Shown here: in pieces, positions 7,440-25,708 of the stretch
How the letters are laid out: every line of letters starts with the position of its first letter
Numbering within the stretch: position 1 is the stretch's first letter
Origin: an uncultured Acidimicrobiales bacterium
Lineage (GTDB): Bacteria > Actinomycetota > Acidimicrobiia > Acidimicrobiales > DATKAS01
Reading direction: 5' to 3'
Assembly: GCA_963733765.1 (NCBI GenBank)
Contig: CAVTEI010000003.1
Span: 501,453-565,452, forward strand
Length of the DNA: 64,000 nucleotides
Notes under the pieces: model-generated
What the model was told of the DNA's origin: nothing
Databases searched by the model: none
Seen by the model: only the letters and a program-made list of their open reading frames with translations
Position numbers and translations under genes: made by a program

Positions 7440-7958
7440 TCACTCCTCCTCCGGCGCTCTCGCTATGAGCGCGATGCGAACAACCACCGTCGGTTCGACC
7501 CGCAGCATCAGGATCCTCGGAGGGTTCAGGCCGAAGTCGCGGATGTCGAACGTCGACTCGCCTTCGAGCCGGATCGTCCGAGCGTCGACGGGAGTGATCC
7601 GCATCACGTCCTGGCACGGCCTCGAGACGCCCCGCAGCGCCAAGTCTCCGGAGATCCGGTAGCGCTCACCCTCCACTCGCTCCATGGCCGTGAGCACCCC
7701 GTCGATCGTCGGGTAGCGAGCGATGTCGACGAACTTCTGCAGCTCGCGATCCTCCAACGAGTTGCCGGATGTCAGTCGCCGCACCGGAAGCGACAGCCGC
7801 CCTGCCGGCGGCTTCGTGGGATCGATCCCATCACCGTCCATGAAGTCGAGCTCAACGAAGCCGTCGATGCCGTCCGCGGTCGAGTGGATCTTGTGCACGC
7901 TCGACCGCGCGTCGACCCACACACGGGACTCGTCGGGCACGATCCGGTAGTGGGTCAC
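7440..7958 (-). CDS. YceI-family (polyisoprenoid-binding fold) protein, no signal peptide
   Basis: S.V...ARSSVH.I, LTSGNSLEDREL, YPTI, GDLALRGVSR, DIRDFG motifs. Start overlaps the upstream microprotein stop. Confidence 0.8.
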   Translation of the reverse strand: MTHYRIVPDESRVWVDARSSVHKIHSTADGIDGFVELDFMDGDGIDPTKPPAGRLSLPVRRLTSGNSLEDRELQKFVDIARYPTIDGVLTAMERVEGERYRISGDLALRGVSRPCQDVMRITPVDARTIRLEGESTFDIRDFGLNPPRILMLRVEPTVVVRIALIARAPEEE

Positions 7959-8065
7959 ATCCCGCGCATCTTCAGGTACCGCGCGACGTCGGGGAGGGAC
8001 TTCACGATGAGCACTGCGACAGCCGCCATGACGACCGACGTCACCATCTTCCGTATCGCGCGCAC
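7955..8065 (-). CDS. Small membrane protein, 36 aa (DUF6893-like), copy 1
   Basis: MRAIRKMVTSVVMAAVAVLIVKSLPDVARYLKMRGM: one TM helix plus PD..RY..(M/L)R.M tail; coupled to YceI. Start codon uncertain. Confidence 0.7.
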   Translation of the reverse strand: MRAIRKMVTSVVMAAVAVLIVKSLPDVARYLKMRGM

Positions 8066-8096
8066 CAGCAATTGACTACGCCACATCGATGTCCGT

Positions 8097-8121
8097 GTAA
8101 ATCGGTGCGATTCACACCGAT
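8097..8121. promoter_or_regulatory. Palindromic operator candidate ATCGGTG-N7-CACCGAT (hydrogenase-locus motif, site 1)
   Basis: Perfect 7-bp inverted repeat at 8101-8121 preceded by GTAA, in the divergent gap; related copies at 19965-19989 and 25684-25708. Confidence 0.7.
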
Positions 8122-8157
8122 GGCGCCACTCGGAGTCGTGTCGTACGGTACCGAGCA

Positions 8158-9267
8158 GTGGAGGAGGCCTCGTCGACGACTGGTACGGACAGCCCACTCG
8201 CGTCGAGATTCGAGCTCGCCCCACCCCGCCGGTTCGTGCTTCCCGCTGTGCTCCTGCTCTTGTCGGAGCAACCAGGCCACGGGTACAGCCTCGACAAGGA
8301 CCTGCGCGATCTCAACTTCGGGAAGATCGATCGACCAACGGTCTACCGCGCCCTGGCGCAGCTCGAGAAGGACGGCCTGGTGCAGTCCCGCTCGGAGGTC
8401 CCCGCGGCCGGGCACGAGCGGCGGGTGTACGGCGTCACGCCGCTCGGCGAGCGTGCCCTTCGCGTCTGGATGAGCGTGATCAAAGAGGAGCGCGACCTGC
8501 TCGGTCGGGTCCTGCGGCGCTACCAAGCGACGGGCACCCTCGACGCGATGCTCTCTGAGGTCGAAGGCGGATGGGCCGCCGGTCTCGGGTCCGGCTGGTC
8601 GCCGGTGTCTCCGACCTCGATGGCACCGCGGCACCTCAGACCTGTCGTCATCGATCCGGACGACCTCCTGAGCGCTGACTTCGAGGACGCTCCGCTCGAG
8701 GTCGAGACCATCACCGTGACGGCGCCGGCGGAGAACCGGGGCACCGACTCGCCGCGGCGATTCGCGCTGACACCCGATCGTTCGGTCGCGTTGATCGAGG
8801 TCCGCTCAACGGTCGGGCCCATCAGCTTCGGGGCTGTTGGCATCACCGGTCACGTCGAAGCGGCCGTCACCGAAGGCAAGGTGAACCCCGAGCCGCCACC
8901 GTCGGCGCACATCGAGATCGCGGTCGACGGCTTGCGTTCCGGCAACAGCCTCTACGACGCGGAGCTACTGCGACGCATCGACGCCCGCCGCTTCCCGACG
9001 GCAACGATCGACCTTTCCGAATGCATGGTCAGCAGTACGAGCGGCCGCTACCGCGTGTCCGGTGAGCTCACCTTCCACGGAGTCACCCGCTCGGCGCATG
9101 GAACCGTGAACGTCGCCGAGCGCCCGGGCGGAAGGCTCGTCATCACCGGCGAACAGGTCTTCGACATTCGTGACTTCGACGTCCCGTCGCCGACAGTGCT
9201 CATGCTGCGCATCTACCCGGACGTGCGAGTCCACCTTCACGTCGAAGCCGAACTCGAGGAGGAGTAG
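8158..9267 (+). CDS. PadR-family winged-helix regulator fused to a C-terminal YceI-like domain
   Basis: N-terminal LLLLSEQPGHGYSL...PTVYRALAQLEKDGLV...RRVYGVTPLG (PadR); C-terminal LRSGNSLYDAEL...FPT...GELTFHGVTR...DIRDF (YceI). Confidence 0.85.
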   Translation: MEEASSTTGTDSPLASRFELAPPRRFVLPAVLLLLSEQPGHGYSLDKDLRDLNFGKIDRPTVYRALAQLEKDGLVQSRSEVPAAGHERRVYGVTPLGERALRVWMSVIKEERDLLGRVLRRYQATGTLDAMLSEVEGGWAAGLGSGWSPVSPTSMAPRHLRPVVIDPDDLLSADFEDAPLEVETITVTAPAENRGTDSPRRFALTPDRSVALIEVRSTVGPISFGAVGITGHVEAAVTEGKVNPEPPPSAHIEIAVDGLRSGNSLYDAELLRRIDARRFPTATIDLSECMVSSTSGRYRVSGELTFHGVTRSAHGTVNVAERPGGRLVITGEQVFDIRDFDVPSPTVLMLRIYPDVRVHLHVEAELEEE

Positions 9268-9269
9268 CG

Positions 9270-9539
9270 ATGATCGCGTTCGTGGCGCTGCTGGTCGGAT
9301 ATGTCATCGGAGCAAAGGCGGGCAGCAAGGACCTCGACGACGTGGTCGGGGCCCTGAAGCGGCTCGGCGGAACCCAAGAGTTCGCAGATGTCGTCACCGC
9401 GACCCGTAGTCACCTCGGTCACACGTTGCGCGAGCTCGCGTCAGTAGTGGACTCACCAGGAGCGGCGACAGAGGAAGCCTCCGACCTCGTCGACCGGGTC
9501 AGACATCTCTTCGCTGGAGACGCCCAGTCCGTCGGCTAG
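9270..9539 (+). CDS. Small membrane-anchored hypothetical protein
   Basis: N-terminal hydrophobic MIAFVALLVGYVIGAKAG, GGAG RBS, 2 nt after the PadR-YceI stop. Confidence 0.65.
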   Translation: MIAFVALLVGYVIGAKAGSKDLDDVVGALKRLGGTQEFADVVTATRSHLGHTLRELASVVDSPGAATEEASDLVDRVRHLFAGDAQSVG

Positions 9540-10319
9540 GCGCGGTCCGTGACGTCCTGGCCGATGCCGCGCAGTCCGACCACAGAGCCATCCGACCCGA
9601 TCATCGGTTGACCGCGCGCGTGGACGGTACGGACGGCCTCGTCCGGTCGGACAACGCGGTACTCGTGCTCGAACGCGCGGCCTGACTCGACCGACGCCTC
9701 CATAGCGGCTCGCACCGAGTCCCGGTCGTCAATGTGGATGGCGCGGAGATGAGCATCGAGCGTGCCGTCGAACGACAGCGGGTCGACGCCGTGAATGCGG
9801 TGGTACTCGTCGCTCCACTGCACCGCCCCGGTCCGGAGGTCCCACAACCAGCTCCCGACGCTCGCCAACGACTCGCTCTCGCGAACCCTCGCCTCGACCT
9901 CAGCCAAGCTCGCCTGTGCGAGACGCTGCTCGGTGATGTCGCGCGCGATGAGGACCGCCGCCGCCGGTACGCCATCGTCGCCAAACACCGGGCAGAGCGA
10001 GAGCGAGATCGGCACGGGCATGCCATCCTTGCGCAGGATCTCCGTCTCGAAGTGGTCGACGCGATCCCCCGCCATGGCGGTCTCGATCATGGCCTCCACC
10101 TCGCCCCGGAGATGATCGGCGAACACGTCGATGCACTGGTGGCCAACGATCTCTTCGGCGCTGAACCCGAAGAGCCGCTCGGCAGTCAGGTTCCACGTCA
10201 TCACCCGCGCGGCTCGCGTCCTGGCTCAAGATCGCGTCCTCGGACGTCTCGAGCACCGCGTCGAGCACGGCTCTCGCCGAGACCGCGGAGACCGACGTGG
10301 ACGGGCGGGGCTTGGTCAT
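9536..10319 (-). CDS. Tandem PAS-PAS protein without output domain (apparent frameshift near 10210)
   Basis: N-terminal SEDAILSQD in one frame joins MTWNLTAERLFGFSAEEIVG...RKDG...RDITE; second PAS_3 (GSWLWD...WSDE...IH.DDR...QDVTDR) then stop. Confidence 0.8.
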
Positions 10320-10347
10320 CTGGGCGTCATGCTCTCAGATGGAACGC

Positions 10348-11119
10348 CTATCGTCCGGCGGCTCCGAGCCAGGCGCACCACTCGTCGACGCCCTGCCCGG
10401 TCTGCGCGCTGACCTCGATCACGCGGACATCGGGGTTCACGTCTTGCAGGTGCGTGAAAAAGCGATCCAGATCGAAGTCGAGGTGCGGAAGCAGATCGAC
10501 CTTGTTCACCAGCACGACGTCGACCGAGCGGAACATCACCGGGTACTTCAGGGGCTTCTCCTCACCTTCGGTCACCGCGTACACCATCGCTCTTGCGTGC
10601 GCTCCGACGTCGAACTCCGCGGGACATACGAGGTTGCCCACGTTCTCGATGAGCAAGACAGTCAATGGCGTCGAGCGGCAGCCTGCTCAAACCCGAGCGC
10701 ACCATGACCGCATCGAGGTGGCACTCGCCACCGAAGCCTGCGCTGGTGTTCACCAGTGAGATCGCGGCCCCGAGCCCTGAGAGCTGGTCGGCGTCGAGGC
10801 TGGTGGCGATGTCGCCCTCGAGCACACCGACCCGACACTTCTCGCCGAGCGCGACGAGTGTTTGCTTCAGCAGGGTCGTCTTGCCCGCGCCGGGAGACGA
10901 CATGAGGTTCACCGCCCACACGCCGCTTCTGTCGAGGTCGGCGCGGTTCCGCTCGGCAACCCGGTCGTTCTCGGACAGGATCGACTGGAGCACGGCCACT
11001 CGGGATGGGCCGGTCTCGACATAGCCGCTGTGGTCTCCCACGTCCCGATGGTCGTGCTCGTGCTCGGGGTCGTCGTGCTCGTGCTCGGTGCCGTCAGCGT
11101 GACGATGGAAGCGCCCCAT
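10348..11119 (-). CDS. hypB: Hydrogenase nickel-incorporation GTPase HypB (apparent frameshift near 10660)
   Basis: His-rich N-terminus, SSPGAGKTT, GGECHLDA; then IENVGNLVCPAEFDVG, EGEEKPLKYP, NKVDL in the next frame. Confidence 0.92.
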
Positions 11120-11463
11120 CAGCGATCGCCCCCGACGAGATCGAACGAGGCGAGCTGGAGCTCGTCTCCGCTCACGAGCTCGACGTTGTGGCTTTCACAT
11201 TCCGAGCAGGCCAGGACCGGCCACGAGAGCGTCGTCTCGGCGCCGCACTCTCGACAGCACACAACCGCCGGCACGTGCTCGATCGCCAGCGCACAGCCCT
11301 CCAGCTCGGTGCCCTGCGTGAGCATCTCCCACGAGAACTGAAGGGAGCCGGGCACGACCTGTCGCAGGTAGCCGATCCGCACGTCGACGCGGCGAACCGG
11401 TCGGCCTGTCGCGCGCTGGCCGACCGTGTCGAGGATGGCCTGGCACAGAGACAGCTCGTGCAT
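11119..11463 (-). CDS. hypA: Hydrogenase nickel chaperone HypA
   Basis: MHELS start, CxxC...CxxC, GDEL. Confidence 0.93.
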   Translation of the reverse strand: MHELSLCQAILDTVGQRATGRPVRRVDVRIGYLRQVVPGSLQFSWEMLTQGTELEGCALAIEHVPAVVCCRECGAETTLSWPVLACSECESHNVELVSGDELQLASFDLVGGDR

Positions 11464-11479
11464 CAGCGCCACCCCATCG

Positions 11480-12613
11480 TCACACCGACGCCCGACCGAG
11501 GGTGACCGCGGCCTCGCGATGTAGCCGTCCGAAGTTGTAGTACGCGGCGCACGCTCCCTCGGACGACACCATGCACGTGCCGATCGGCGTCTCGGGTGTG
11601 CACGCGGTGCCGAAGACCTTGCACTCCCACGGCTTGATCACACCCTTCAGCACTTCGCCGCACTGGCACGCCTTGGGGTCGGCGACGCGAACTCCGGGCA
11701 CCGCGAAACGCAGCTCCGCGTCCCACGGCGCGAACTCCTCGCGGAGCTTGAGCGCGCTCTGCGCGATGAAGCCGAGGCCCCTCCACTCGAAGTGCGGTCG
11801 TAGCTCGAACACCTCGGCGAGGAACTGAAGCGCGCGGGGGTTGCCCTCGTCGCGAACGATCCGCGTGTACTGGTTCTCGATCTCGCAACGCCCCTCGCGG
11901 ATCTGAGCCAGCAACATCGCGATGGCTTGCAGGATGTCGAGCGGCTCGAAGCCGGCCGTCACGAGCGGCTTTCCGTAGTCACGCGCCACGAACCGATACG
12001 GGTGGTTGCCAACGACGGTCGAGACGTGGCCGGGGCCGAGGAAGCCGTCGAGACGCAGGTCGGGCGAGTCGAGGATCGCCTTGATGGGCGGCACGATCGT
12101 CACGTGGTTGGAGAAGACGCTGAAGTTCATCACCCGGTCATCGCGGGCCTTGACGAGGGTGACGGCGGTGGAGGGCGCCGTGGTCTCGAAGCCGACGGCA
12201 AAGAACACAACCTGCCGGTCGGGGTTGTCGACCGCCACCTTCAGCGCATCGAGCGGCGAGTAGACGAACCGCACGTCGGCGCCGCGAGCCTTCGCTTCGA
12301 GCAACGTCCCGTTGCCTCCGGGCACGCGCATCATGTCGCCGAAGCTCGTGAAGATGACACCCGGGGTTTCGGCGACGGCGATGGCGTCGTCGATCCTCCC
12401 CATCGGGATGACGCAGACCGGGCAGCCCGGGCCGTGCACCAGCTCGACGTTGCGAGGCAGCACGTGCTCGATCCCGTGCCGGTAGATGGTGTGCGTGTGG
12501 CCCCCGCACACCTCCATGAACTTGTAGTGGCACTCGGTGCCGGCGAGCTCGGCGATGGTCGCGAGCACGCGGCGCGAGGCGACCGGATCGCGGTACTCGT
12601 CGACGAACCTCAT
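11480..12613 (-). CDS. hypD: Hydrogenase maturation protein HypD
   Basis: MEVCGGHTH, GPGCPVC, GFETT, PGHVS, CMVSSEGACAAYY. Confidence 0.97.
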   Translation of the reverse strand: MRFVDEYRDPVASRRVLATIAELAGTECHYKFMEVCGGHTHTIYRHGIEHVLPRNVELVHGPGCPVCVIPMGRIDDAIAVAETPGVIFTSFGDMMRVPGGNGTLLEAKARGADVRFVYSPLDALKVAVDNPDRQVVFFAVGFETTAPSTAVTLVKARDDRVMNFSVFSNHVTIVPPIKAILDSPDLRLDGFLGPGHVSTVVGNHPYRFVARDYGKPLVTAGFEPLDILQAIAMLLAQIREGRCEIENQYTRIVRDEGNPRALQFLAEVFELRPHFEWRGLGFIAQSALKLREEFAPWDAELRFAVPGVRVADPKACQCGEVLKGVIKPWECKVFGTACTPETPIGTCMVSSEGACAAYYNFGRLHREAAVTLGRASV

Positions 12614-12879
12614 GGCGCGGTGCCTCTCAGCATCTCCATCTCGTCGTCGAGGCCCGACCCCATCAGCCGAAGCGAAGCCAGTGCAACCGCCGCCTCCTCC
12701 TCGTCGATCTTCGACATCGCGAAGCCGACGTGGATCAGCACCCAGTCACCGACCTCGAGCGCCTCGTCCTCGAGCAGTCCGATGTTGATCATCCGGCGCA
12801 CGCCCGACACCTCGACGCGCGCGAGCTGGTCGTTGTCCGGAACGAACTCGACGAGCTGACCGGGTATGCCAAGACACAT
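12610..12879 (-). CDS. hypC: Hydrogenase chaperone HypC
   Basis: MCLGIPG start and GDWVLIHVGFA. Confidence 0.96.
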   Translation of the reverse strand: MCLGIPGQLVEFVPDNDQLARVEVSGVRRMINIGLLEDEALEVGDWVLIHVGFAMSKIDEEEAAVALASLRLMGSGLDDEMEMLRGTAP

Positions 12880-12909
12880 GTCCGAAGCTCCTACTGCTCG
12901 GTCATCGGG

Positions 12910-13029
12910 TCACATCCGCCGGAGACGGCGATACCGCGAGATGTCCGGTATCGAGATGAGAACGAAGACGATCGCGGCGAGCACCAGCACCACGACGATG
13001 CTGATGAAGACGATCCCGAGTACTTCCAT
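12910..13029 (-). CDS. Small membrane protein, 39 aa (DUF6893-like), copy 2
   Basis: Not in the ORF track. MEVLGIVFISIVVVLVLAAIVFVLISIPDISRYRRLRRM; fills the gap in the operon. Confidence 0.75.
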   Translation of the reverse strand: MEVLGIVFISIVVVLVLAAIVFVLISIPDISRYRRLRRM

Positions 13030-13032
13030 GGG

Positions 13033-13137
13033 TCACATCCTCTTGAGGTTGAGGTAACGGCGGACCTCGGGCGCGATCTCTCTCAACACGACGACGGCAC
13101 CGGCGAGGAGGGCGAGCATCATCAGGCGACGGAGCAC
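13033..13137 (-). CDS. Small membrane protein, 34 aa (DUF6893-like), copy 3
   Basis: Not in the ORF track. GTG start after a strong [10 protein letters not shown]; MLRRLMMLALLAGAVVVLREIAPEVRRYLNLKRM. Confidence 0.75.
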   Translation of the reverse strand: MLRRLMMLALLAGAVVVLREIAPEVRRYLNLKRM

Positions 13138-13595
13138 GGGTCACTCCTTTCTGCGAGGAAGTCCTGGACGACGCGGACGGCGGGCTCCACGGCAGCGGCG
13201 ACGGCCGGCGACAGCCCGATGCCCTCGCCTACGTCGGCGGGCTGACACCCGACGATGACCACCCTGCCGACCCCGCCGCCGAGCTCGGCCACCATCCTGA
13301 GCACGGCATGGGGGTCCATCCGGTGGGCGTCGAGCGGTTCGGCGTCGGCGCCTTCTGGGTCGGGCTCCAGCACACACACGGTGCCGGCACCGTCGCCAGT
13401 TGCCATCGCGTCCACGAGCACCAAGAGGTCCACGCCTTCAAGGAGATCGAGCGCGAGATGCAGCCCTCGGATGCCGTAGTCGATGACGGTCACCTCCGGG
13501 GGGAGAGGACGATCCTGCAGGTGTCGGGCGACCTCGCATCCGAAGCCGTCGTCACGGTTGAAGATGTTCCCGATCCCCGCGACGAGCGTCTTCAC
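13122..13595 (-). CDS. Hydrogenase maturation endopeptidase (HybD/HupD family)
   Basis: LVAGIGNIFNRDDGFG, DYGIRGLHL, VDA, DAH.MDP, VGCQP, GLS. Confidence 0.92.
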   Translation of the reverse strand: MKTLVAGIGNIFNRDDGFGCEVARHLQDRPLPPEVTVIDYGIRGLHLALDLLEGVDLLVLVDAMATGDGAGTVCVLEPDPEGADAEPLDAHRMDPHAVLRMVAELGGGVGRVVIVGCQPADVGEGIGLSPAVAAAVEPAVRVVQDFLAERSDPCSVA

Positions 13596-17020: not shown

Positions 17021-17050
17021 GCGCTCCTCTCGGCGGCCGGGGATTGCTGG

Positions 17051-18829: not shown

Positions 18830-18833
18830 GGCG

Positions 18834-19892
18834 TCAGCTCCACGTCTTCGTGTGTCCGGAGGTCAGCTCTCGACCCTTGACCCGCCACGACGGCTCCTTG
18901 TTGACCGTGCGATTCGTCATCGACCGCAGTCGGCGCACCGCCGAGCCGTACAGCCCGCTGGCGACCGTCGAGACGCGAGCGCCCGGCGGCTCGTCCATGA
19001 AGGGCATGAACTTGTCGGGGAAGCCCGGCATGGTGCAGCCGATGCAGATGCCTCCGACGTTCGGGCATCCGCCGACACCGTTGATCCACCCGCGCTTGGG
19101 AACGTTGCAGTTCACGACCGGACCCCAGCACCCGAGCTTCACGATGCACTTCGGCGAGCCGTACTCCGTCGCGAAGTCGCCCTGCTCGTAGTACCCGGCT
19201 CGGTCACAGCCCTCGTGCACGGTCGCTCCGAAGAGCCACTGCGGTCGAAGCGCGTCGTCGAGCGGGATCATCGGGGCTTGGCCGGTCGCCATGTACAGCA
19301 GGTACAGGATCGTCTCGGAGAGGTTGTCGCCTTGCACGGGGCAGCCCGGTACGCACACGATCGGGATGCCGGCCTTCGATTTCCACGACCAACCGAGGTA
19401 GTCGGGCACGCCCATTGCGCCGGTGGGGTTGCCGGCCATCGCGTGCATGCCGCCGTAGGTCGCGCACGTGCCGACTGCGACGACGGCGAGAGCCTTCGGC
19501 GTGAGGCGGTCGAGCCACTCGCTCGTCGTCATCGGCTGATCGGTTTCGGGGTTGTTGCCGAACCCGCACCAATAGCCCTCGCGCTTGATCGCCTCGTTCG
19601 GAATCGAGCCCTCGACGATCAGCACGAACGGCTCGAGCTCGCCTCGATCCGCCTTGAAGAACCACTCGAGGAAGTCATCCGCACCGCCGTTGGGCCCGCA
19701 CTCGAAGTCGATGAGCGGCCAGTGGACAGCGATCTTCGGCAGACCTGGGAGAGCGCCGAGCGCGATCTCCTCGATGCTGGGCTGCGTCGCCCCGGTCAGC
19801 GCGACGGAGTCTCCATCACAGCTGAGGCCCGCATTGATCCACAAGACGTGGATCACGGTCTCCTCGGGTGGGGCTTCCTTGGTCGCAGGCAT
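18834..19892 (-). CDS. hhyS: Group 1h [NiFe]-hydrogenase small subunit
   Basis: WINAGLSCDGDS, GTCATYGG, PGCP, VHEGCDR, CIVKLGCWGP, GGICIGCTMPGFPD; no Tat signal. Confidence 0.95.
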   Translation of the reverse strand: MPATKEAPPEETVIHVLWINAGLSCDGDSVALTGATQPSIEEIALGALPGLPKIAVHWPLIDFECGPNGGADDFLEWFFKADRGELEPFVLIVEGSIPNEAIKREGYWCGFGNNPETDQPMTTSEWLDRLTPKALAVVAVGTCATYGGMHAMAGNPTGAMGVPDYLGWSWKSKAGIPIVCVPGCPVQGDNLSETILYLLYMATGQAPMIPLDDALRPQWLFGATVHEGCDRAGYYEQGDFATEYGSPKCIVKLGCWGPVVNCNVPKRGWINGVGGCPNVGGICIGCTMPGFPDKFMPFMDEPPGARVSTVASGLYGSAVRRLRSMTNRTVNKEPSWRVKGRELTSGHTKTWS

Positions 19893-19964
19893 TGGCGAAC
19901 CTCCCCCGCGCTGGTGAGTCGGCTCCCCGAGCGCAGTGTCACATTGCCCCCATCCGTGCAGCAG

Positions 19965-19989
19965 GTAAATGAGTGCATTTCTCACCTAG
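19965..19989. promoter_or_regulatory. Hydrogenase-locus motif, site 2 (upstream of hhyS)
   Basis: GTAA-ATGAGTG-CATTTCT-CACCTAG, same geometry as site 1 with three mismatches. Confidence 0.6.
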
Positions 19990-20025
19990 TGCCCGATTCG
20001 CGACGTCGGCGTACCGTGGCCGGGG

Positions 20026-20907
20026 ATGGCTCCGGTCGCGATCACGGCGGCCGAACGCACGGCGTTCAAGCGCTGCCGGCGCGCGTGGGACCTCGGAGCG
20101 CGCTTGCGCCGCGGCCTCGAGCCTGTCGGGACGGGACCCCGAGCCACCGACCATCCCGCTCGGGAGGCACTCGCGGTGCACTACTTCCCCGGCATGTGGC
20201 TGTGGGATCGCTCCATCGTGCGCCCGCTGGTCCTGAAGGCGGCCGGCGAGTCGGCGGCGTTCGTCGAGCGCTACGTCGACTGGGCCGAGAGAGTCGACGA
20301 CTTCGAGCCGCTGCGGGTCGAGTTCGACTACGACGCCCGCGTCCCGGATCCGAGCGGCAACGGCGACCTCGCCGCACCGGATGGACGCGCGGTGCACTAC
20401 GTGGGTCGCGCGCACGCTCTCGTCATCGATGATGATCGCGCGCGCTGGTTGCTCGTCCACCGTTTCGGTCCGTGGTCGTCACCCGAGGTGCTCCAACTCG
20501 ACGAGGAGGCCGTGACCGCGGCGTGGGCCTGGGAGCACACGTTCCTCGACGCCAGGATCCAGGGCGTGCTGTACAACGAGCTGACGCTCGATGCCCGCTT
20601 CCGACGCACGCGGGTGCGGCTGTCGCGCGGTGCCATCGCCCTCGCGGGCGAGCAGCTCGCGCGCGAGGCGGCCGAGATGCTCGACCCTGACCTTGCCGTC
20701 TATCCGACTCCCGCAACGGATTGCGAGAGCTGCGCGTTCGTGGCGCCGTGCATCGAGATGCAAACCGGAGGTGATGCGGAGGACCTGCTCACGCGCGACT
20801 TTCGCGCCCGGCCACCCGAAGAGCTCGAGGAAGGCCGCCTCGGCGGGAGCACTTGGAGCATGGGGCGGGGCGCGATGCCCGTCCGGTTCAGCGGCGACGG
20901 TCGCTGA
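20026..20907 (+). CDS. Cas4/AddB-like PD-(D/E)XK-fold protein with four Fe-S-type Cys and degenerate nuclease motifs
   Basis: N-terminal TAFKRCRRAW and C-terminal CESCAFVAPC; GRAH and LLVHR where GxxD and (D/E)xK are expected. Confidence 0.65.
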   Translation: MAPVAITAAERTAFKRCRRAWDLGARLRRGLEPVGTGPRATDHPAREALAVHYFPGMWLWDRSIVRPLVLKAAGESAAFVERYVDWAERVDDFEPLRVEFDYDARVPDPSGNGDLAAPDGRAVHYVGRAHALVIDDDRARWLLVHRFGPWSSPEVLQLDEEAVTAAWAWEHTFLDARIQGVLYNELTLDARFRRTRVRLSRGAIALAGEQLAREAAEMLDPDLAVYPTPATDCESCAFVAPCIEMQTGGDAEDLLTRDFRARPPEELEEGRLGGSTWSMGRGAMPVRFSGDGR

Positions 20908-20966
20908 AGTTCAGCCCTGCGGTGCAGCGGTCGAGGCCGCCGATCAGGTGGGCCGGCCGCTGGCGA

Positions 20967-23201
20967 TCAGACGATCGCTGCAGCGACTGCGGCTTGGCCG
21001 ATGCTGATGCCGCCGTCGTTCGGCGGGACGATTCGGTGGACGAGGACCTCGAGGCCGGCCGCGGTGAATGCCTCCTCGACAATGTCGCTCAGGCGCGGGT
21101 TCTGGAACACCCCGCCCGTCAAGGCCACGGTCCGCAGGCCGTACTCGCGGGCCAGGTCGGCACCAGCCGCCGCCGCCGCCCGACCGATCGATTCGTGGAA
21201 GGCAGCGGCGAGCACCGGCGTCGACACGTCCCGTGTCCGCCCGGCGACGAGCTCGGCAATGAGCGGCGACGGGTCGATCACGAGCGCGCCTGACGCGTTC
21301 CGGCCGATCTCGACCGGGAACGTCGGCGCTTCGGCGCGTGGCACCGATCGGGCCAGCGCCTCGAGCTCGATCGCTGCCTGCGCCTCGTAGGTGACGCGCG
21401 GACGAAGACCGAGCAGCGCGGCGACCGCGTCGAACAACCGTCCCATGCTCGTGGTCACGGGTCCGTGCCCGCGGGCAACGAGGTCGTGCACGGCGTCGCG
21501 GCGGGAGTCGACGAAGGAGTCATCGACACCAGCGCGATGAGCCCACGCGACGCCCATACGCCACGGCTCCAAGATCGCGGCGACGCCACCAGGCATGGTG
21601 ACCGGGGCGAGATGGCCGACGCGCTCGAAGCCACGGAGGTCGGCGACGAGGAGCTCGCCTCCCCACAGGGTGCCGTCGGTGCCGTAGCCGAGTCCGTCGA
21701 AGGCGAGGGCGAGCACCGGGCCGGTCCGGCCGTGCTCGGTCAGGCACGACGCGACGTGGGCATGGTGGTGCTGCACGCCGATGGACGGAAGGTCGAGGTC
21801 CGCCGCGAGCTTGGTCGAGAGGTACTCGGGGTGCAGGTCGTGGGCGACGAGCTCGGGGGCCACGGCGTAGAGCGCGCAGAGATGGTCGATCGCCTGCAGG
21901 AAAGAGCGGTACGTGGCGAAGTGCTCGAGGTCACCGATGTGGTGGCTCGCGACGACGTCGTCGCCCACCGTCACCGCCACCGTGCTCTTGAGCTCGGCCC
22001 CGACGGCCAGGATCGGCCGGCTCGCAGGCGTCACCATCGAGAGAGGCTGGGGAGCGAACCCGCGCGAGCGACGCAGCACCTGAGTGCGCCCCGCGCTCGT
22101 GGCGCGGACAACCGAGTCATCGCAGCGGATGTGAATGCCGCGGTCGTGGCCGAGCACGCCGTCCACAAGAGCGGCCAGACGCTCGGACGCGTCGGCGTCC
22201 TCGTGCGCGATCGGCTCGTCGCTCACGTTTCCACTTGTCATGACGAGGGGTCGGCCGACACCGCGCAACAACAGGTGGTGCAGCGGCGAGTACGCGAGCA
22301 GGACTCCGAGCTCGGGCAGGTTCGGAGCGACACCGCTCGCGACGGGAGCGTCTTCTCGACGCGGCGCAAGCACGATCGGGCGCCCAGCTGAGGTCAGCGC
22401 GTCAGCGGCGGCATCGGAGAGCGTGCACAGCGTGCGCGCCTCGTCGAGGTCGTGCACCATCACGGCGAACGGCTTGTCGTCGCGGGCTTTGCGTCGGCGC
22501 AGCTCGCCCACCGCCTCCTCGTTCGCAGCATCGACCGCGAGGTGGAACCCGCCGATTCCCTTGACCGCGACGATCCCGCCGACCTCGAGTGCAGCGATCG
22601 CGGCCTCGAGTGCGGCATCGCCCTCGAGGTGACCCCAGAGCAAGCGAGGCCCGCACTCCGGGCAGGCGTTCGGCTGCGCGTGGAAGCGGCGATCGAGCGG
22701 ATCGTCGTACTCGGCCTGGCACGCCTCGCACATCGTGAACCGGGCCATCGTCGTGCCGGGGCGGTCGTAGGGCACGCTGCGGACGATCGTGTACCGGGGA
22801 CCGCAGTCGGTGCAGTTCGTGAACGGATAGCGGTACCGGCGGTCGGTCGGGTCGTCGATCTCGGCGAGGCACGCGGTGCAGGTCGCAGTGTCAACGCTGA
22901 CCGCGGCCGTGGGTGCGCCCCCACTTTCGCTCTCGACGATCGCGAACTTCGTGTCGCCCTCGACGGGGACAGGAGTGGCGGTGATCGTTCCGATCCGTGC
23001 AAGCGGAGGAGGGTCGTCGACGAGCAGGCGCGACACCTCGAGCACCGCACCCTCGTCCCCTTCGATCTCGATCAGGACGCCCGCGCTGTCGTTCTGCACC
23101 CAACCGGCGAGGCCCAGTCGGGTGGCGTGGCGGTAGACGAACGGACGGAAGCCGACGCCCTGGACGGTGCCCGTCACCCGGATCTGACGGCGGACGGTCA
23201 A
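20967..23201 (-). CDS. hypF: Carbamoyltransferase HypF
   Basis: GTVQGVGFRPF acylphosphatase domain, two Zn fingers, KGIGGFHL, HDLHPEY, QHHHAH, PPNDGGISIGQ. Confidence 0.97.
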   Translation of the reverse strand: MTVRRQIRVTGTVQGVGFRPFVYRHATRLGLAGWVQNDSAGVLIEIEGDEGAVLEVSRLLVDDPPPLARIGTITATPVPVEGDTKFAIVESESGGAPTAAVSVDTATCTACLAEIDDPTDRRYRYPFTNCTDCGPRYTIVRSVPYDRPGTTMARFTMCEACQAEYDDPLDRRFHAQPNACPECGPRLLWGHLEGDAALEAAIAALEVGGIVAVKGIGGFHLAVDAANEEAVGELRRRKARDDKPFAVMVHDLDEARTLCTLSDAAADALTSAGRPIVLAPRREDAPVASGVAPNLPELGVLLAYSPLHHLLLRGVGRPLVMTSGNVSDEPIAHEDADASERLAALVDGVLGHDRGIHIRCDDSVVRATSAGRTQVLRRSRGFAPQPLSMVTPASRPILAVGAELKSTVAVTVGDDVVASHHIGDLEHFATYRSFLQAIDHLCALYAVAPELVAHDLHPEYLSTKLAADLDLPSIGVQHHHAHVASCLTEHGRTGPVLALAFDGLGYGTDGTLWGGELLVADLRGFERVGHLAPVTMPGGVAAILEPWRMGVAWAHRAGVDDSFVDSRRDAVHDLVARGHGPVTTSMGRLFDAVAALLGLRPRVTYEAQAAIELEALARSVPRAEAPTFPVEIGRNASGALVIDPSPLIAELVAGRTRDVSTPVLAAAFHESIGRAAAAAGADLAREYGLRTVALTGGVFQNPRLSDIVEEAFTAAGLEVLVHRIVPPNDGGISIGQAAVAAAIV

Positions 23202-24280
23202 CAGATCCGCGGGAGTGGATCGCCGACGAGCATGTCGACGATGCGCGTGCCTCCGAACGTCGTGAGCAGCACGACGATGCGTTCGTGATCGGCGTTGATC
23301 GATCCGATCGCCGCGGCCGCCCGGCCGAGAGGGTGACCATGGAGAGCGGCGAGCGCGGCTTCGGCTTCATCGGGCGCGACGACCGCAACGAGCTTTCCTT
23401 CGTTCGCGACATACAGCGGGTCGATGCCGAGCAGGTCGCAGGCCGCGGTCACCGCCGGATCGACCGGGATCGTGGCCTCGTCGAGCACGACCGCGAGGTT
23501 CGTCGCTTGCGCGAGCTCGTTGCACACTGTGCCGAGCCCACCCCGCGTCGGGTCGCGCAGCCATCGGGTGCTCGGGGCCGCGGTGAGCAGCGTCTCCACG
23601 AGGTCGCCCAGCGGCGCGGTGTCGGAGCTGATGTCCGCCTCGATGGCAAGGTCACCGCGGGCGAGCATCACCGCCATGCCGTGATCGCCGATCGTCCCCG
23701 ACACCAAGACGACGTCACCCGCCTGGACATGCTCGGGTCCGAGGTTGCGGTCAGCCAGCAGCACGCCGACCCCCGCGGTCGTGATGTACAGGCCGTCGGC
23801 CGCGCCCCGATCGACCACCTTGGTGTCTCCGGCCACGATCGTGACGCCCGCGGCCCGAGCGGCTTCCGCCATGTCGGCGACGATGTCGCGGAGCTCCGTG
23901 ATCGCGAACCCCTCCTCGATGACGAACGCGGCGGAAAGCCAGGTCGGGCGCGCGCCCATCATGGCGACGTCGTTCACGGTGCCGTGGACGGCGAGATGTC
24001 CGATCGAGCCACCGGGGAAGAAGCGGGGACGCACGACGAAGGAGTCGGTGCTGAACGCGAGGCGGTCACCGCCCGGCAGATCGAGACGGGCAGCGTCGCT
24101 CAACGACGACAGGGTGTCGTTTGCGAAAGCCTCCACGAACACCGCGTCGACGAGTGCGGCCGACGACTTCCCCCCGGCACCGTGAGCCAACGTCACGATC
24201 TCATCGGTGAGGCGCGGGCGACGCCGGCGGAACGCCTCGATGCGCTCGAGCACCTGTGCTTCGCGCGCCTCAGTGGCCAT
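23198..24280 (-). CDS. hypE: Carbamoyl dehydratase HypE
   Basis: LAHGAGG, STDSFVV, GDTKVV, RDPTRGG, ANEGK and terminal PRIC. Confidence 0.96.
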   Translation of the reverse strand: MATEAREAQVLERIEAFRRRRPRLTDEIVTLAHGAGGKSSAALVDAVFVEAFANDTLSSLSDAARLDLPGGDRLAFSTDSFVVRPRFFPGGSIGHLAVHGTVNDVAMMGARPTWLSAAFVIEEGFAITELRDIVADMAEAARAAGVTIVAGDTKVVDRGAADGLYITTAGVGVLLADRNLGPEHVQAGDVVLVSGTIGDHGMAVMLARGDLAIEADISSDTAPLGDLVETLLTAAPSTRWLRDPTRGGLGTVCNELAQATNLAVVLDEATIPVDPAVTAACDLLGIDPLYVANEGKLVAVVAPDEAEAALAALHGHPLGRAAAAIGSINADHERIVVLLTTFGGTRIVDMLVGDPLPRIC

Positions 24281-24924
24281 GCGCGCCGACCGGCTCACTG
24301 AGCGACTGCACGAGCTGCCAGAGCTCGAACACGACCGCGCTCTGCACTTCCTGGATGCGATGGACGCTGTCCGACCTCACCACGAGACAATGGTCGACCG
24401 TGCCCGCGGCTGCCATCGAGCCGCCGTCGTAGCCCGCCAACCCGATCGTGAGCAGTCCCAGCCTGCCGCGCTTCAGCGAACGCGCGCAGGAGGTTGGCCG
24501 AGCTGCCGCTGGTGGACAACCCGAATGCGATGTCGGTCGAAGTGGCCATGGAGATCAGCTGGCGCGAGAAGACGAGCTCGTAGCCGACGTCGTTGGCAAG
24601 CGCGGTGAGCACCGCCTGATCCGCCACGAGCGACCGAGCGGGGAAGGATCGGCCCGATGGCGGGCGGCTGAAGAGCGCGGCGACACCCGCCGCGTCGGTC
24701 GCGCTGCCGCCGTTGCCGAAAGCGTAGAGGCGGCCCCCGCCCGCGAAGCGCTGGGCTATGGCGTCGGCAGCCGCATGGAGGTCGGTGGCGAGTGTCGCGA
24801 GCGTCGACTGCCGCAAGGCGACACTCATCTCCATCTTCGTCTCGGCCGACCGTGCGAGATCGTCGACCAGTGCTCCGCCGTCGCGCTCGTTGCGCTCGAT
24901 GAACGGGTACAGGAAGTCCGTCAC
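24270..24924 (-). CDS. SIS-domain (GmhA/phosphoheptose isomerase-like) protein (apparent frameshift near 24460)
   Basis: FGNGGSATDA, TALAND, STSGSS; the shifted frame continues GLLTIGLAGYDGG...SVHRIQE to TGA at 24270. Confidence 0.85.
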
Positions 24925-25622
24925 GGCTCGACCACAGTGATCGCACTCCCTGCGTGGACGAGCACGAGATCACCGGGCTGCACTGGTCCGACGAGTGTGG
25001 TGTCGACGGTCTCGACCCCCACGGACGTCCGCACCGCCGCTGTCGCCCCGGCGTCCAACGCGCCGATGACCTCGGCCAGCCTTCCCTCGTCCGAGCATGT
25101 GACGCAGGCAGTGGGCTCGGCCGCGGTGTCGAGCAGCCCCGGATGTTCGAAGCACACGTGCGTGAGCTCCCAAAGCACGTGATAGCCGCGGACGACCCGC
25201 CCGTCGTGCCGAGCGCACTCGTCATCGCCGACCCACAGGAGGTGATCCACGGCGACTTCAGCTGGCTGCGGACCCCAACCCATCCAGACAGTCAGGAGCC
25301 CCCACACTGCCGCTCGGCGCATCGTGTCGGCGACCGGCGCGCCGGCGTCGGCGACGACGAGCAGTGCATCGCCGGGGCGGGCGCCGACCCGGAGGGCCCC
25401 GACCGCGTCGTCGTCGCCGAGCGCCACAGCAGGGAGCGCACGGGTTCCGACGATGACGGGGTGGACGAACTCGACGGCCACGTGCTGCGCGTGGTGAGGC
25501 GCTCCTGGTGCCCAGCACCACAAGGTGCCGCCGTGAGCGAAGCGGCGCGCGAGCGCGAGCGCGGCAGTCGCGAGAGAGGCGGCGACGTCCCCGGGGGTCT
25601 CCTCGCGGCGAGCTTCCGACAT
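24921..25622 (-). CDS. Degenerate SIS domain fused to a HypC/HupF-like domain
   Basis: HVAVEFVHPVIVG.RALPA, YHVLWELTHVCFEH, then CVTCSD and GDLVLVHAG (HypC-like). Confidence 0.8.
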   Translation of the reverse strand: MSEARREETPGDVAASLATAALALARRFAHGGTLWCWAPGAPHHAQHVAVEFVHPVIVGTRALPAVALGDDDAVGALRVGARPGDALLVVADAGAPVADTMRRAAVWGLLTVWMGWGPQPAEVAVDHLLWVGDDECARHDGRVVRGYHVLWELTHVCFEHPGLLDTAAEPTACVTCSDEGRLAEVIGALDAGATAAVRTSVGVETVDTTLVGPVQPGDLVLVHAGSAITVVEP

Positions 25623-25660
25623 GTCGCTCCCCATGCGCCCCTCTCCCAGGACAGGCGCGC

Positions 25661-25708
25661 ATGGTACGTCGTGGTGACGAGGCGTCAATCGGTGCAATCG
25701 GCACCTAT
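25661..25708 (-). promoter_or_regulatory. Promoter TTGACG-N16-TACCAT for the SIS-hypC/hypEF operon, adjoined by hydrogenase-locus motif site 3
   Basis: -10 at 25661-25666, -35 at 25683-25688; ATCGGTG-CAATCGG-CACCTAT at 25688-25708. Confidence 0.65.

What the first reader, a model, noticed from the sequence alone, without database searches (positions are those of the whole stretch)
7440..25708. Candidate dedicated regulon for an atmospheric-H2 hydrogenase: one palindrome at all three promoter regions, next to a PadR-YceI regulator
Seen: the same motif sits in each of the three divergent gaps of the locus, in the same orientation relative to the minus-strand units. The copies are GTAA-ATCGGTG-CGATTCA-CACCGAT (8097-8121, before microprotein-yceI), GTAA-ATGAGTG-CATTTCT-CACCTAG (19965-19989, before hhySL) and GTCA-ATCGGTG-CAATCGG-CACCTAT (25684-25708, before SIS-hypC/hypEF). 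On the minus strand each runs into a -35-like TT(G/T)AC. The core is GTG-N7-CAC, not the GTG-N8-CAC of CRP/GlxR sites. The perfect copy lies just upstream of the only recognisable transcription factor in the locus, the PadR-YceI fusion. Established: group 1h enzymes oxidise trace H2, PadR proteins usually autoregulate via palindromes, and YceI barrels bind isoprenoid/quinone-like lipids. Inference: a one-component, lipid- or quinone-responsive regulator controls structural and maturation genes together. I do not know of such a system being described.
Basis: partly seen in the sequence, partly recalled or inferred. Interest (0 to 1): 0.9.

Follow-up and report, generated by a model that had tools for sequence, protein, structure and literature searches.

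The report
Conserved operator of a hydrogenase gene cluster
One 21-base inverted repeat sits directly against three promoters that drive a hydrogen-scavenging enzyme, its assembly genes and a lipid-binding protein; in related bacteria it comes and goes with a neighbouring PadR-type regulator gene, giving a concrete candidate switch for this kind of enzyme.

Summary
The three copies (8101-8121, 19969-19989, 25688-25708) have one architecture: GGTG-N7-CACYSAT, whose last base is the first base of a -35 hexamer (TTTACA / TTTACC / TTGACG) of a promoter on the minus strand.

- **Specificity:** a matrix built only from hhyS-upstream sites of other genomes ranks these three first among 8.4 million positions of the 4.2 Mb genome. 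Nothing else comes close.
- **Conservation:** the site lies upstream of hhyS in 28 of 37 examined Acidimicrobiales genomes.
- **Link to the regulator:** 27 of those 28 have an orthologue of the PadR domain of the neighbouring PadR-YceI gene. None of the 9 genomes without the site has one.
- **Synteny:** the regulator gene always sits in hhy/hyp clusters and is often divergent from hhyS across the operator.

The best reading is a locus-specific PadR-family regulon of three units: DUF6893-yceI, hhySL-hyp, and SIS/hypC-hypEF. The regulator is probably a repressor.

The lipid or quinone ligand remains inference. The YceI fold is confirmed, but some lineages keep the operator with a PadR lacking YceI. 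No binding experiment exists. I found no published link between PadR or YceI and group 1h hydrogenases.

The parts
8101..8121 (.). Operator O1, a perfect 7+7 inverted repeat (ATCGGTG-N7-CACCGAT). It lies between DUF6893-yceI (minus strand) and padR-yceI (plus strand).
   Evidence: It ranks 2nd genome-wide with a matrix trained on hhyS sites of other genomes.
8073..8101 (-). Predicted promoter of DUF6893-yceI: -35 TTTACA (8096-8101, overlapping O1 by one base), 17-nt spacer, -10 TAGTCA (8073-8078).
   Evidence: Read. It has the same geometry as 41 orthologous hhyS promoters. No transcription start has been mapped.
7955..8047 (-). 30-aa DUF6893 microprotein.
   Evidence: Translation. Pfam PF21833, 38.8 bits against a cut-off of 24.6.
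7440..7958 (-). Stand-alone YceI-like protein, a paralogue of the regulator's C-terminal domain (36% identity).
   Evidence: Pfam PF04264. The 36% identity is. In most relatives this gene lies inside the hhy operon.
8158..9267 (+). PadR-YceI fusion, the candidate regulator. The wHTH spans residues 24-93, helices span 95-142, a disordered linker spans 143-194, and the YceI barrel spans 200-366.
   Evidence: Pfam PF03551 plus PF04264. AlphaFold2 model. Foldseek matches. Homologues.
9270..9539 (+). orf89, a small protein that follows padR-yceI in most relatives.
   Evidence: No family above threshold.
9536..10318 (-). PAS-domain protein with no output domain. It is convergent with padR-yceI/orf89 in relatives and is the last gene of the hhy unit here. 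Its N-terminus looks frameshifted near 10215-10225.
   Evidence: Pfam and NCBIfam PAS matches. Synteny. The frameshift was read by eye.
10348..13643 (-). Maturation genes of the hhy unit: hypB (split into two frames), hypA (11119-11472), hypD (11480-12613), hypC (12610-12879) and the maturation protease (13122-13643).
   Evidence: Pfam.
13592..17020 (-). Accessory genes of the hhy unit: an unknown protein (13592-~14800), DUF6084, DUF5947 and a NifU-Rieske protein (16157-17020).
   Evidence: Pfam. They are conserved in relatives.
17051..19892 (-). hhyL (17051-18829) and hhyS (18834-19892), the large and small subunits of the [NiFe]-hydrogenase.
   Evidence: Pfam. They are 81-88% identical to HhyL loci of Acidimicrobiales, Mycobacterium and Streptomyces. 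Contigs from RNA libraries that are identical to the window cover parts of both genes.
19969..19989 (.). Operator O2, upstream of hhyS and 37 nt before the divergent orf293.
   Evidence: An orthologous site is present in 28 of 37 examined genomes. It is the top hit genome-wide.
19941..19969 (-). Predicted hhyS promoter: -35 TTTACC (19964-19969), 17-nt spacer, -10 CAATGT (19941-19946).
   Evidence: Read. Column profile of 41 orthologous promoters. An RNA-library contig ends at 19920, which is only a weak hint.
20026..20907 (+). orf293, an unknown protein divergent from hhyS. It is present in 17 of 42 operator-bearing loci.
20967..25622 (-). Third unit: a HypC-domain fusion (24921-25622), a SIS protein (24295-24924), hypE (23198-24298) and hypF (20967-23201).
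   Evidence: Pfam and NCBIfam.
25688..25708 (.). Operator O3 (ATCGGTG-N7-CACCTAT on the plus strand). It lies upstream of the HypC-fusion unit and 16 nt before the divergent hydrolase-cyclase gene.
   Evidence: It ranks 3rd genome-wide. The identical site is present in two genomes of the same genus.
25661..25688 (-). Predicted promoter of the third unit: -35 TTGACG (25683-25688), 16-nt spacer, -10 TACCAT (25661-25666).
   Evidence: Found independently by the consensus scan.
25724..27103 (+). Alpha/beta-hydrolase fused to an adenylate/guanylate cyclase domain. It is a neighbour only within the window's own genus.
   Evidence: Pfam. It is present in 3 of 42 operator-bearing loci.

Best explanation
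The three 21-bp inverted repeats are operators of a regulator that serves only this locus. That regulator is the PadR-family protein encoded at 8158-9267.

Each operator ends on the first base of the -35 hexamer of a minus-strand promoter. A dimer bound there would therefore control three units together:
- DUF6893-yceI;
- hhySL with its accessory and hyp genes;
- the HypC-fusion/SIS/hypE/hypF unit.

The most likely mode is repression by crowding the -35 region, relieved when a hydrophobic ligand enters the C-terminal YceI barrel. I give repression about 0.6, conditional on the regulator being right.

Shown here: the anatomy, the conservation, the specificity, and the co-occurrence with the PadR gene. 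Inferred: binding itself, the direction of control and the ligand.
For: **1. Common architecture.** All three sites share half-sites, spacing, orientation and an abutting -35.

**2. Conservation.** The operator lies 73-165 nt before the hhyS start in 18 of 19 Acidimicrobiales-type loci and in 28 of 37 examined genomes of the order. Across 40 unique sites, GGTG is kept in 36-39, CAC in 38-40, and A-T at columns 20-21 in 39-40.

**3. Specificity.** The three sites are the top three of 8.4 million genome positions. No other position is comparable.

**4. Co-occurrence with the PadR domain.**
- Of 28 genomes with the operator, 27 have a match to the PadR domain at E<=1e-20 (42-79% identity).
- None of the 9 genomes without the operator has one. 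Their best PadR matches are 33-42% identical at E 1e-8 to 1e-16 in eight, and none at E<=1e-6 in G150.
- At locus level, the PadR domain lies within the fetched stretch in 33 of 42 loci with the operator and 0 of 14 without.
- On an HhyS+HhyL tree, five independent pairs differ in PadR. The operator changes the same way in 4 and the other way in 0.

**5. Synteny.** The gene is divergent from hhyS across the operator in L002, L006, L010, L013, L015, L018, L023, L102, L103 and L136. In L023 and L015 the palindrome is flanked by -35 hexamers on both sides. PadR orthologues in genomes without a detected HhyS still sit beside hyp genes.

**6. Site count follows unit count.** Compact loci have one site. 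L011, L005, L106 and L004 have two. The window's genus has three.

**7. No better-correlated candidate gene.** In the locus-level tally of 15 genes the PadR domain tracks the operator best (33 of 42 loci with it, 0 of 14 without); orf89, PAS and the stand-alone YceI each also occur in 2-3 operator-less loci, orf293 is in 17 of 42 and the cyclase in 3 of 42.

**8. The protein fits the role.** It has a PadR wHTH and a YceI barrel. Y43, Y63 and R88 are invariant in 40 homologues.

**9. For repression.** PadR-less relatives of family f33 use the same core promoter, TTTACA-17-TAGTCC. The -35 hexamers here are good ones. PadR itself is a ligand-released repressor (PMC5728393, passages read).
Against: - There is no binding, expression or transcription-start experiment of any kind.
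- Operator and PadR gene are physically linked, so shared descent of one locus variant explains part of the co-occurrence. The sign test on independent pairs gives only p = 0.125.
- One genome has the operator but no orthologue found: G312, 88% complete in 670 contigs.
- In many relatives padR-yceI has its own TTGACAC-N17-TAtGAA promoter 60-100 bp from the palindrome. Autoregulation is therefore not general.
- About nine genomes of the 401-genome sample carry a PadR orthologue without YceI; those among them that were examined still have the operator. YceI is therefore not required for the operator.
- In the hhyS promoters the spacer AAA and the promoter-proximal half are as conserved as the half-sites, and they persist in PadR-less family f33. 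Part of the conservation may belong to the promoter itself.
- The operator centre lies near -45. That position does not by itself tell a repressor from an activator.
- The -10 lacks the usual final T.
Confidence: 0.7

Rival explanations
1. The repeats are operators, but of a different transcription factor encoded elsewhere. The PadR gene merely travels with the locus.
For: Linkage can produce co-occurrence without function. The sign test on independent pairs is not significant (p = 0.125). G312 has the operator without a detected orthologue. In many relatives the regulator's own promoter is not next to the palindrome.
Against: The genome holds only three sites, all in this locus, which points to a local factor. 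Of the 15 genes tallied across loci the PadR domain tracks the operator best, with none in the 14 operator-less loci. A PadR orthologue is present in 27 of 28 genomes with the operator and 0 of 9 without. In L023, L015 and L011 the palindrome abuts the regulator's own -35.
Confidence: 0.12
2. The conserved element is part of the promoter itself, such as an upstream or extended -35 element read by RNA polymerase or by an alternative (stress-type) sigma factor. It is not a transcription-factor operator.
For: The promoter-proximal half and the A-rich spacer are kept in PadR-less f33 genomes next to the same -35 (L007, L109, L120 and L122). The -10 is unusual: G-rich, then TA, with no conserved final T. 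By recall only, this resembles SigB/SigF-type -10 boxes. The distal half is less conserved at its outer bases.
Against: The distal GGTG is present in 36-39 of 40 sites and is missing exactly where the PadR orthologue is missing. Sites 1 and 3 keep both half-sites but not the A-tract. Site 1 is a perfect palindrome, and in L023 and L046 the element reads equally well in both directions. That is symmetry a promoter element does not need.
Confidence: 0.1
3. The sites are CRP/GlxR-type cAMP-receptor sites, fed by the adenylate cyclase gene next to site 3.
For: The half-sites are GTG...CAC. A cyclase-domain gene starts 16 nt from site 3.
Against: The spacing is N7 in all three window sites and in all 40 orthologous sites, which share one register. 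By recall, CRP/GlxR sites are GTG-N8-CAC. The cyclase gene is a neighbour in only 3 of 42 operator-bearing loci, all from the window's own genus. A global factor would have many sites, and there are only three.
Confidence: 0.03
4. The resemblance of three intergenic sequences is chance.
For: The bare core GGTG-N7-CACC is not enriched: 3 found against 1.56 expected.
Against: Expected 0.01 against 3 found for the full pattern. The sites are the top three of 8.4 million positions with a matrix trained on other genomes. The site is conserved across families of the order.
Confidence: 0.01

Closest known systems
PadR of Bacillus subtilis and LmrR of Lactococcus lactis (PadR family, ligand-released repressors)
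   Same: Both have a winged-helix PadR domain. The family binds palindromic operators as a dimer and releases DNA on binding a hydrophobic effector (PMC5728393, passages read). LmrR also autoregulates (PMC4534193, abstract seen in the listing). Here Pfam PF03551 scores 56.8 bits, and Foldseek matches 6abt, 5x11 and LmrR entries.
   Different: In known members the effector pocket lies between domains or between subunits. Here a whole YceI beta-barrel is appended after a ~50-residue disordered linker. The targets are a [NiFe]-hydrogenase and its maturation genes, not detoxification or efflux genes. The operator is GGTG-N7-CACC flanked by AT, which differs from the padC operator as I recall it.
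PhaQ, the poly-beta-hydroxybutyrate-responsive PadR-type repressor (NCBIfam TIGR02719)
   Same: It is the best NCBIfam match of the N-terminal domain, at residues 22-122. By recall, it responds to a hydrophobic storage compound.
   Different: The score is 58.5 bits against a cut-off of 139.35, so this protein is not a member. PhaQ has no YceI domain.
YceI-like lipid-binding proteins (TT1927b 1wub, E. coli YceI 1y0g, BcnA 5ixh)
   Same: The fold of residues 200-366 is the same: Foldseek E 2e-11 to 9e-10, TM 0.73-0.85 on the target. Pfam PF04264 also matches.
   Different: Those proteins stand alone, and most are secreted or periplasmic (recalled). Here the domain is fused to a DNA-binding domain, and both it and its paralogue lack an obvious signal peptide (read). 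Sequence identity is 13-20%.
Known hydrogenase regulation: HoxJ/HoxA with the sensor hydrogenase HoxBC, DosR for mycobacterial Hyd3, and GylR acting indirectly on Huc
   Same: Both concern control of uptake-hydrogenase operons.
   Different: Those are two-component or global systems (recalled). For the high-affinity enzymes no direct transcription factor is known: PMC13098282 (passages read) reports that GylR, Crp1 and Crp2 do not bind huc, and it asks how Hhy is induced. The system here would be a one-component local regulator.
CRP/GlxR binding sites of Actinobacteria
   Same: The half-site cores are GTG and CAC.
   Different: The spacing is 7 rather than 8. There are only three sites in the genome.

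Membership tests
PadR family (Pfam PF03551) | The profile match is above the curated cut-off. | tested here: met
   56.8 bits against a cut-off of 27, residues 31-102.
PadR family (Pfam PF03551) | A winged helix-turn-helix fold followed by a dimerisation helix. | tested here: met
   The AlphaFold2 model has H24-37, H42-51, H59-71, a wing at E75-80/E88-93, and a long helix at 95-125. Foldseek matches PadR structures 6abt, 5h20 and 5zi8 with TM 0.79-0.82 on the target.
PadR family (Pfam PF03551) | Three DNA-contact residues are conserved: Tyr, Tyr and Lys/Arg. These are Tyr20, Tyr42 and Lys67 of B. subtilis PadR (PMC5728393, passages read). | tested here: inconclusive
   Y43, Y63 and R88 are invariant in 40 homologues and lie at the expected places of the wHTH. 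I inferred the residue-by-residue correspondence; no tool aligned it.
PadR family (Pfam PF03551) | Binds a palindromic operator as a dimer and responds to an effector. | not testable with these tools
   Only indirect evidence exists: a palindromic conserved site that co-occurs with the gene.
PhaQ equivalog (TIGR02719) | The score is above the curated cut-off. | tested here: not met
   58.5 bits against 139.35.
YceI-like domain (Pfam PF04264) | The profile match is above the cut-off and the fold is an eight-stranded barrel. | tested here: met
   46 bits against 23.7. Foldseek gives 1wub at E 2.4e-11 and 5ixh at TM 0.85. A sequence search of the PDB found no YceI chain at E<=0.01.
YceI-like domain (Pfam PF04264) | Binds an isoprenoid or other lipid inside the barrel. 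| not testable with these tools
   Inferred from the titles of the matched structures only.
CRP/GlxR-type site | GTG and CAC are separated by 8 bases (recalled consensus). | tested here: not met
   The spacing is 7 in 3 of 3 window sites and in the 40 orthologous sites, which are aligned in one register.
Group 1h (Hhy) [NiFe]-hydrogenase locus | Large and small subunits close to the actinobacterial Hhy enzymes, accompanied by the hhy accessory genes. | tested here: met
   HhyL is 81-88% identical to loci of Mycobacterium, Streptomyces, Rhodococcus and Acidimicrobiales. NifU-Rieske, DUF5947 and DUF6084 follow it. No hydrogenase classifier was available, so the subgroup label rests on this likeness.

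The most novel reading that the evidence does not exclude
The YceI barrel of the regulator senses the same lipophilic molecule that the stand-alone YceI paralogue of the hhy operon handles for the enzyme. That molecule could be menaquinone/menaquinol or a polyprenyl carrier. The state of the respiratory quinone pool would then directly switch on atmospheric-H2 scavenging and the maturation machinery.

This would be a one-component feedback loop built by duplicating a pathway component and fusing the copy to a PadR domain.
Probability: 0.2. Interest if true: 0.85.

Novelty: new variant of a known kind. Interest (0 to 1): 0.72.

Why it matters
High-affinity hydrogenases remove most of the hydrogen that soils take from the air. 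Yet how their genes are switched on is an open question.

The most recent study I could read (PMC13098282, passages) found no direct regulator for Huc. It asks outright how Hhy is induced.

This locus offers three things:
- a defined 21-bp operator;
- three defined promoters;
- a named candidate protein.

The family has at least 1018 relatives in public data, and the 120 best matches all carry both domains. A gel shift, a reporter assay and a ligand screen could settle the question quickly.

The locus also flags a YceI-like protein as a regular member of Acidimicrobiales hhy operons. That may bear on how this enzyme reaches its electron acceptor.

Tried and rejected
**Matrices that under-scored site 3**
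- The first matrix, made from 17 orthologous hhyS sites with all 21 columns, gave site 3 only 8.5-13.2, because the hhyS sites share an AAA spacer.
- I therefore also used half-site-only and half-site-plus-(-35) scoring.

**Other candidate places, set aside**
- The extra GGTG-N7-CACC at window 59972 and two further genome matches to a pattern written from the three sites did not reach the matrix thresholds.

**Searches that gave nothing useful**
- Sequence search of the PDB found only PadR chains and no YceI chain. The fold search was needed.
- Rfam found nothing in 7000-27500.
- The consensus promoter scan found one of my three promoters. The other two fail its rule of a T at the last -10 position.

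**RNA evidence**
- Only assembled contigs of four metatranscriptome runs were available.
- They cover parts of hhyL and hhyS with identical sequence, and one piece ends at 19920.
- Contigs cannot show starts, strand or level.
- The absence of cover over the regulator, the hyp unit and most other genes says nothing.

**Other leads**
- The open frame of 385 aa around a YceI match in G081 looked like another fusion. It is a stand-alone YceI behind a GGDEF-EAL gene.
- I ran neither complex prediction nor a dimer model.
- The resemblance of the -10 to SigB/SigF-type boxes rests on recall only and was not tested.
- Supplementary files of papers were closed. Supplementary Figure S2 of PMC5728393, the family alignment of the three DNA-contact residues, could have settled the residue correspondence.

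Full report
**What is in the sequence.**
- A degenerate 24-mer written from them, with up to three mismatches, matches only these three places in the window. The expectation was 0.01.
- The window is G000:C3:501453-565452 of a 4.2 Mb genome with 68.5% G+C.
- The nearest HhyL loci belong to Acidimicrobiales genomes assembled from metagenomes.

On the minus strand:
- a 30-aa DUF6893 protein (7955-8047) and a stand-alone YceI protein (7440-7958);
- hhyS (18834-19892) and hhyL (17051-18829), followed by NifU-Rieske, DUF5947, DUF6084, an unknown protein, the maturation protease, hypC, hypD, hypA, hypB and a PAS protein;
- a HypC-domain fusion (24921-25622), a SIS protein, hypE and hypF.

On the plus strand:
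- the PadR-YceI fusion (8158-9267) and orf89;
- orf293 (20026-20907);
- a hydrolase-cyclase fusion (25724-27103).

The flanks hold an ECF sigma factor, an RskA-type anti-sigma factor and DUF4394. The 347-aa protein at 6395-7438 matches no family.

**Anatomy of the sites.** Read on the minus strand, all three sites have one design.
- An inverted repeat (GGTG, seven bases, CACYSAT) ends on the first base of a -35 hexamer.
- The -35 hexamers are TTTACA at 8096-8101, TTTACC at 19964-19969 and TTGACG at 25683-25688.
- After 17, 17 and 16 bases come TAGTCA, CAATGT and TACCAT.
- The tool's own consensus scan found the third promoter. The other two fail its demand for a final T.
- The operator centre would lie about 45 bases before the predicted start.
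- Site 1 is a perfect 7+7 palindrome.

**Conservation.**
- With HhyL as query I fetched 80 loci with 10-kb flanks.
- A matrix made from the three window sites hit 17 of these 80 loci at a score of 14 or more. In 14 of them the hit lay just upstream of hhyS.
- One more hit lay in a padR/HypC-fusion gap. The two hits in loci without the PadR gene lay elsewhere.
- None of the Mycobacterium, Streptomyces, Nocardia, Rhodococcus or other non-Acidimicrobiales loci had a site at hhyS.
- Aligned by eye, 18 of 19 Acidimicrobiales-type loci show the same element at the same distance from a TTKAC -35.
- After adding loci from a 401-genome sample of the order, 40 unique hhyS sites were in hand. They give GGTG in 36-39, AAA in the spacer in 34-39, CAC in 38-40, and A-T at columns 20-21 in 39-40. 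TTKAC follows.
- The -10 begins 17 bases after the -35 with T (26 of 41) and A (35 of 41). A G-rich stretch precedes it, and there is no conserved final T.

**Specificity.**
- A matrix trained on 17 sites of other genomes put window site 2 first and site 1 second in the whole genome. Site 1 had no counterpart in the training set.
- With the spacer left out, the three sites ranked 5-6, 7 and 10 among 1223 hits scoring at least 8, out of about 8.4 million positions scored.
- With half-sites plus -35, using the 40-site matrix, they are the top three: 29.3, 26.7 and 26.6.
- The next scores are 20.4 (site 3 read backwards) and 18.1.
- With all 25 columns, only these three positions reach 16.
- For site 2 the larger matrix is not independent, because two genomes of the same genus contribute the identical site. 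For sites 1 and 3 it is independent.

The regulon in this genome is therefore these three promoters and nothing else that can be seen.

**Link to the PadR gene: synteny.**
- The fusion gene lies in the hhy locus of most Acidimicrobiales-type loci.
- It is often divergent from hhyS, with the operator in the shared gap: L002, L006, L010, L013, L015, L018, L023, L102, L103 and L136.
- In L023 one palindrome is flanked by TTGAC on both sides. In L015 and L011 the palindrome abuts the -35 of the regulator gene.

**Link to the PadR gene: census.**
- In the order sample, 42 genomes other than G000 have an HhyS at least 80% identical.
- I examined 37. Five flagged as unpublished were left out.
- The operator is present in 28 (matrix score 12.5 or more within 300 nt of the start) and absent in 9 (best score 6.3).
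- An orthologue of the PadR domain (E<=1e-20, 42-79% identity) is present in 27 of the 28 and in none of the 9.
- In eight of the 9 the best PadR-like matches are 33-42% identical at E 1e-8 to 1e-16; G150 has none at E<=1e-6.
- The exception, G312, is 88% complete in 670 contigs.
- The genome of L007 also lacks both the operator and the orthologue. L046 and L077 have both, with the gene just beyond the fetched flank or on another contig.
- Some examined genomes were also sources of the first matrix. The positives are therefore not all independent of it.

**Link to the PadR gene: tree test.**
- On an HhyS+HhyL tree of 51 rows, the operator needs at least 4 changes and the PadR state 5.
- Seven loci with incomplete genes were dropped.
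- Of five independent pairs that differ in PadR, the operator goes the same way in 4, the other way in 0, and does not differ in 1.
- The sign test gives p = 0.125, which is too few pairs for significance.

**Other genes in the locus.**
- Among other locus genes, none tracks the operator as well.
- orf293 is in 17 of 42 operator-bearing loci and the cyclase in 3 of 42.
- PAS and orf89 mostly travel with the PadR gene.
- PadR orthologues in genomes where no HhyS was found (G366, G243, G007, G034) still lie beside hypD, the HypC fusion, or DUF6893 plus the protease.

**Site number follows unit number.** Where the hyp genes are in the hhy operon there is one site. L011, L005, L106 and L004 have a second site at a second unit. 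The window's own genus (L091, L129) has the same three sites as the window.

**The protein.**
- The AlphaFold2 model (mean pLDDT 67.9, with good confidence inside the domains) shows four parts: a winged helix (24-93), a long helix (95-125) with a second one (129-142), a disordered linker (143-194) and a beta-barrel (200-366).
- Foldseek places the barrel with TT1927b (1wub), BcnA (5ixh) and E. coli YceI (1y0g). It places the N-terminus with PadR structures.
- At least 1018 proteins match at E<=1e-10 among the 8000 candidates scored. The 120 best all carry both Pfam domains and only generic names.
- Y43, Y63 and R88 are invariant in 40 homologues.
- They sit where the three DNA-contact residues of B. 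subtilis PadR would be expected (PMC5728393, passages). That correspondence is my inference.
- The regulator's barrel is 36% identical to the stand-alone YceI at 7440-7958.
- In most relatives that stand-alone gene lies inside the hhy operon.

**How it most likely works.**
- A PadR-type dimer on a palindrome touching the -35 would hinder, or possibly help, the sigma factor at three promoters at once.
- I favour repression (about 0.6) for four reasons. The family's studied members are mostly ligand-released repressors. The -35 hexamers here are good. PadR-less relatives of family f33 run what looks like the same core promoter without the distal half-site. Site 1 overlaps the region where the regulator's own promoter must lie in this genus.
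- An activator cannot be excluded.
- The ligand is unknown. A hydrophobic molecule is suggested by the fold. A quinone or polyprenyl compound is suggested only by the paralogy with an operon-encoded YceI.

**What weakens the case.**
- There is no experiment.
- The gene and the site are linked.
- The PadR-only orthologues (about nine genomes in the sample, read from the table) show that the YceI domain is an addition and not a requirement.
- Autoregulation is not general.
- The spacer and the proximal half of the hhyS site also persist in PadR-less genomes. Part of the conservation may therefore belong to the promoter.
- The -10 is unusual.
- The assembly has indel errors.

**Literature.**
- Five full-text searches found no paper that links PadR or YceI to group 1h or Hhy hydrogenases.
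- Three papers hold both the words PadR and YceI. By title and abstract, none concerns a fusion.
- PMC13098282 (passages) states that GylR, Crp1 and Crp2 do not bind the huc promoter. It asks how Hhy and CO dehydrogenase are induced.
- Only the held library was searched, and supplements were closed.

**Verdict.** The regulon reading is well supported by comparative genomics. The ligand reading remains open. This is a new variant of a known kind: a PadR-family one-component regulator with an appended YceI sensor and a hydrogenase regulon.

Noticed in passing
G000 genome-wide, e.g. C3:413671, C3:613953, C7:409372 (none inside the finding): A repeat family of about 100 bp has 36 copies containing CAATCGGTGCT, often two in tandem about 100 bp apart. 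Each copy ends in a GC-rich hairpin. It shares a 10-mer and the GGTGC...GCACC spacing with site 3, and its copies are the next-best matrix hits after the real sites (18.1).
   Followed up: partly
window 10348-11119 (-): hypB is split into two overlapping frames: 10562-11119 holds the N-terminal part of the cobW domain and 10348-10665 holds the C-terminal part. One RNA-library contig lacks one base at 10660, so an assembly indel or a strain difference is likely.
   Followed up: partly
window 10205-10318 (-): The PAS gene seems to start at an ATG near 10318, with a typical PAS N-terminus in another frame. A second frameshift would lie near 10215-10225. This was read by eye.
   Followed up: no
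L002-L023 and L095-L105, about 5.6-6.4 kb after the hhyL start: A stand-alone YceI gene is a regular member of the hhy operon in Acidimicrobiales relatives, present in 27 of 42 operator-bearing loci. In the window's genus it has moved to a separate unit with DUF6893 and its own operator copy.
   Followed up: partly
G331, G021, G122, G340, G080, G243, G007 (and G174/G220, flagged unpublished): Orthologues of the PadR domain without a YceI domain (open frames mostly 155-243 aa; that of G080 is 547 with one TGA) sit beside hhy/hyp genes. The operator is present where it was examined.
   Followed up: partly
window 20026-20907 (+): orf293 is a recurrent divergent partner of hhyS (17 of 42 operator-bearing loci). 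It matches no family and ends in a Cys-rich motif. The operator lies 37 nt before its start.
   Followed up: no
window 25724-27103 (+): An alpha/beta-hydrolase fused to an adenylate/guanylate cyclase domain starts 16 nt after operator O3. It is a neighbour only in the window's own genus.
   Followed up: partly
L002, L010, L018, L102, L103, L114, L117 and others, upstream of padR-yceI: The regulator gene has a conserved promoter of its own, TTGACAC-N17-TA(T/A)GAA, usually 60-100 bp away from the palindrome.
   Followed up: no
41 orthologous hhyS promoters, columns 40-49 after the start of the operator: The -10 region is G-rich, followed by TA, without the usual final T. It may be served by a sigma factor other than the housekeeping one.
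   Followed up: no
window 4060-6292: An ECF sigma factor, an RskA-type anti-sigma factor and a DUF4394 protein form a cluster just outside the finding. It is not conserved next to hhy in relatives.
   Followed up: no
G312:C542:7633-9728: In the one genome that has the operator but no orthologue, a different PadR-like gene (40% identical) lies about 1 kb from a second, more distant hydrogenase small-subunit gene (50% identical).
   Followed up: no
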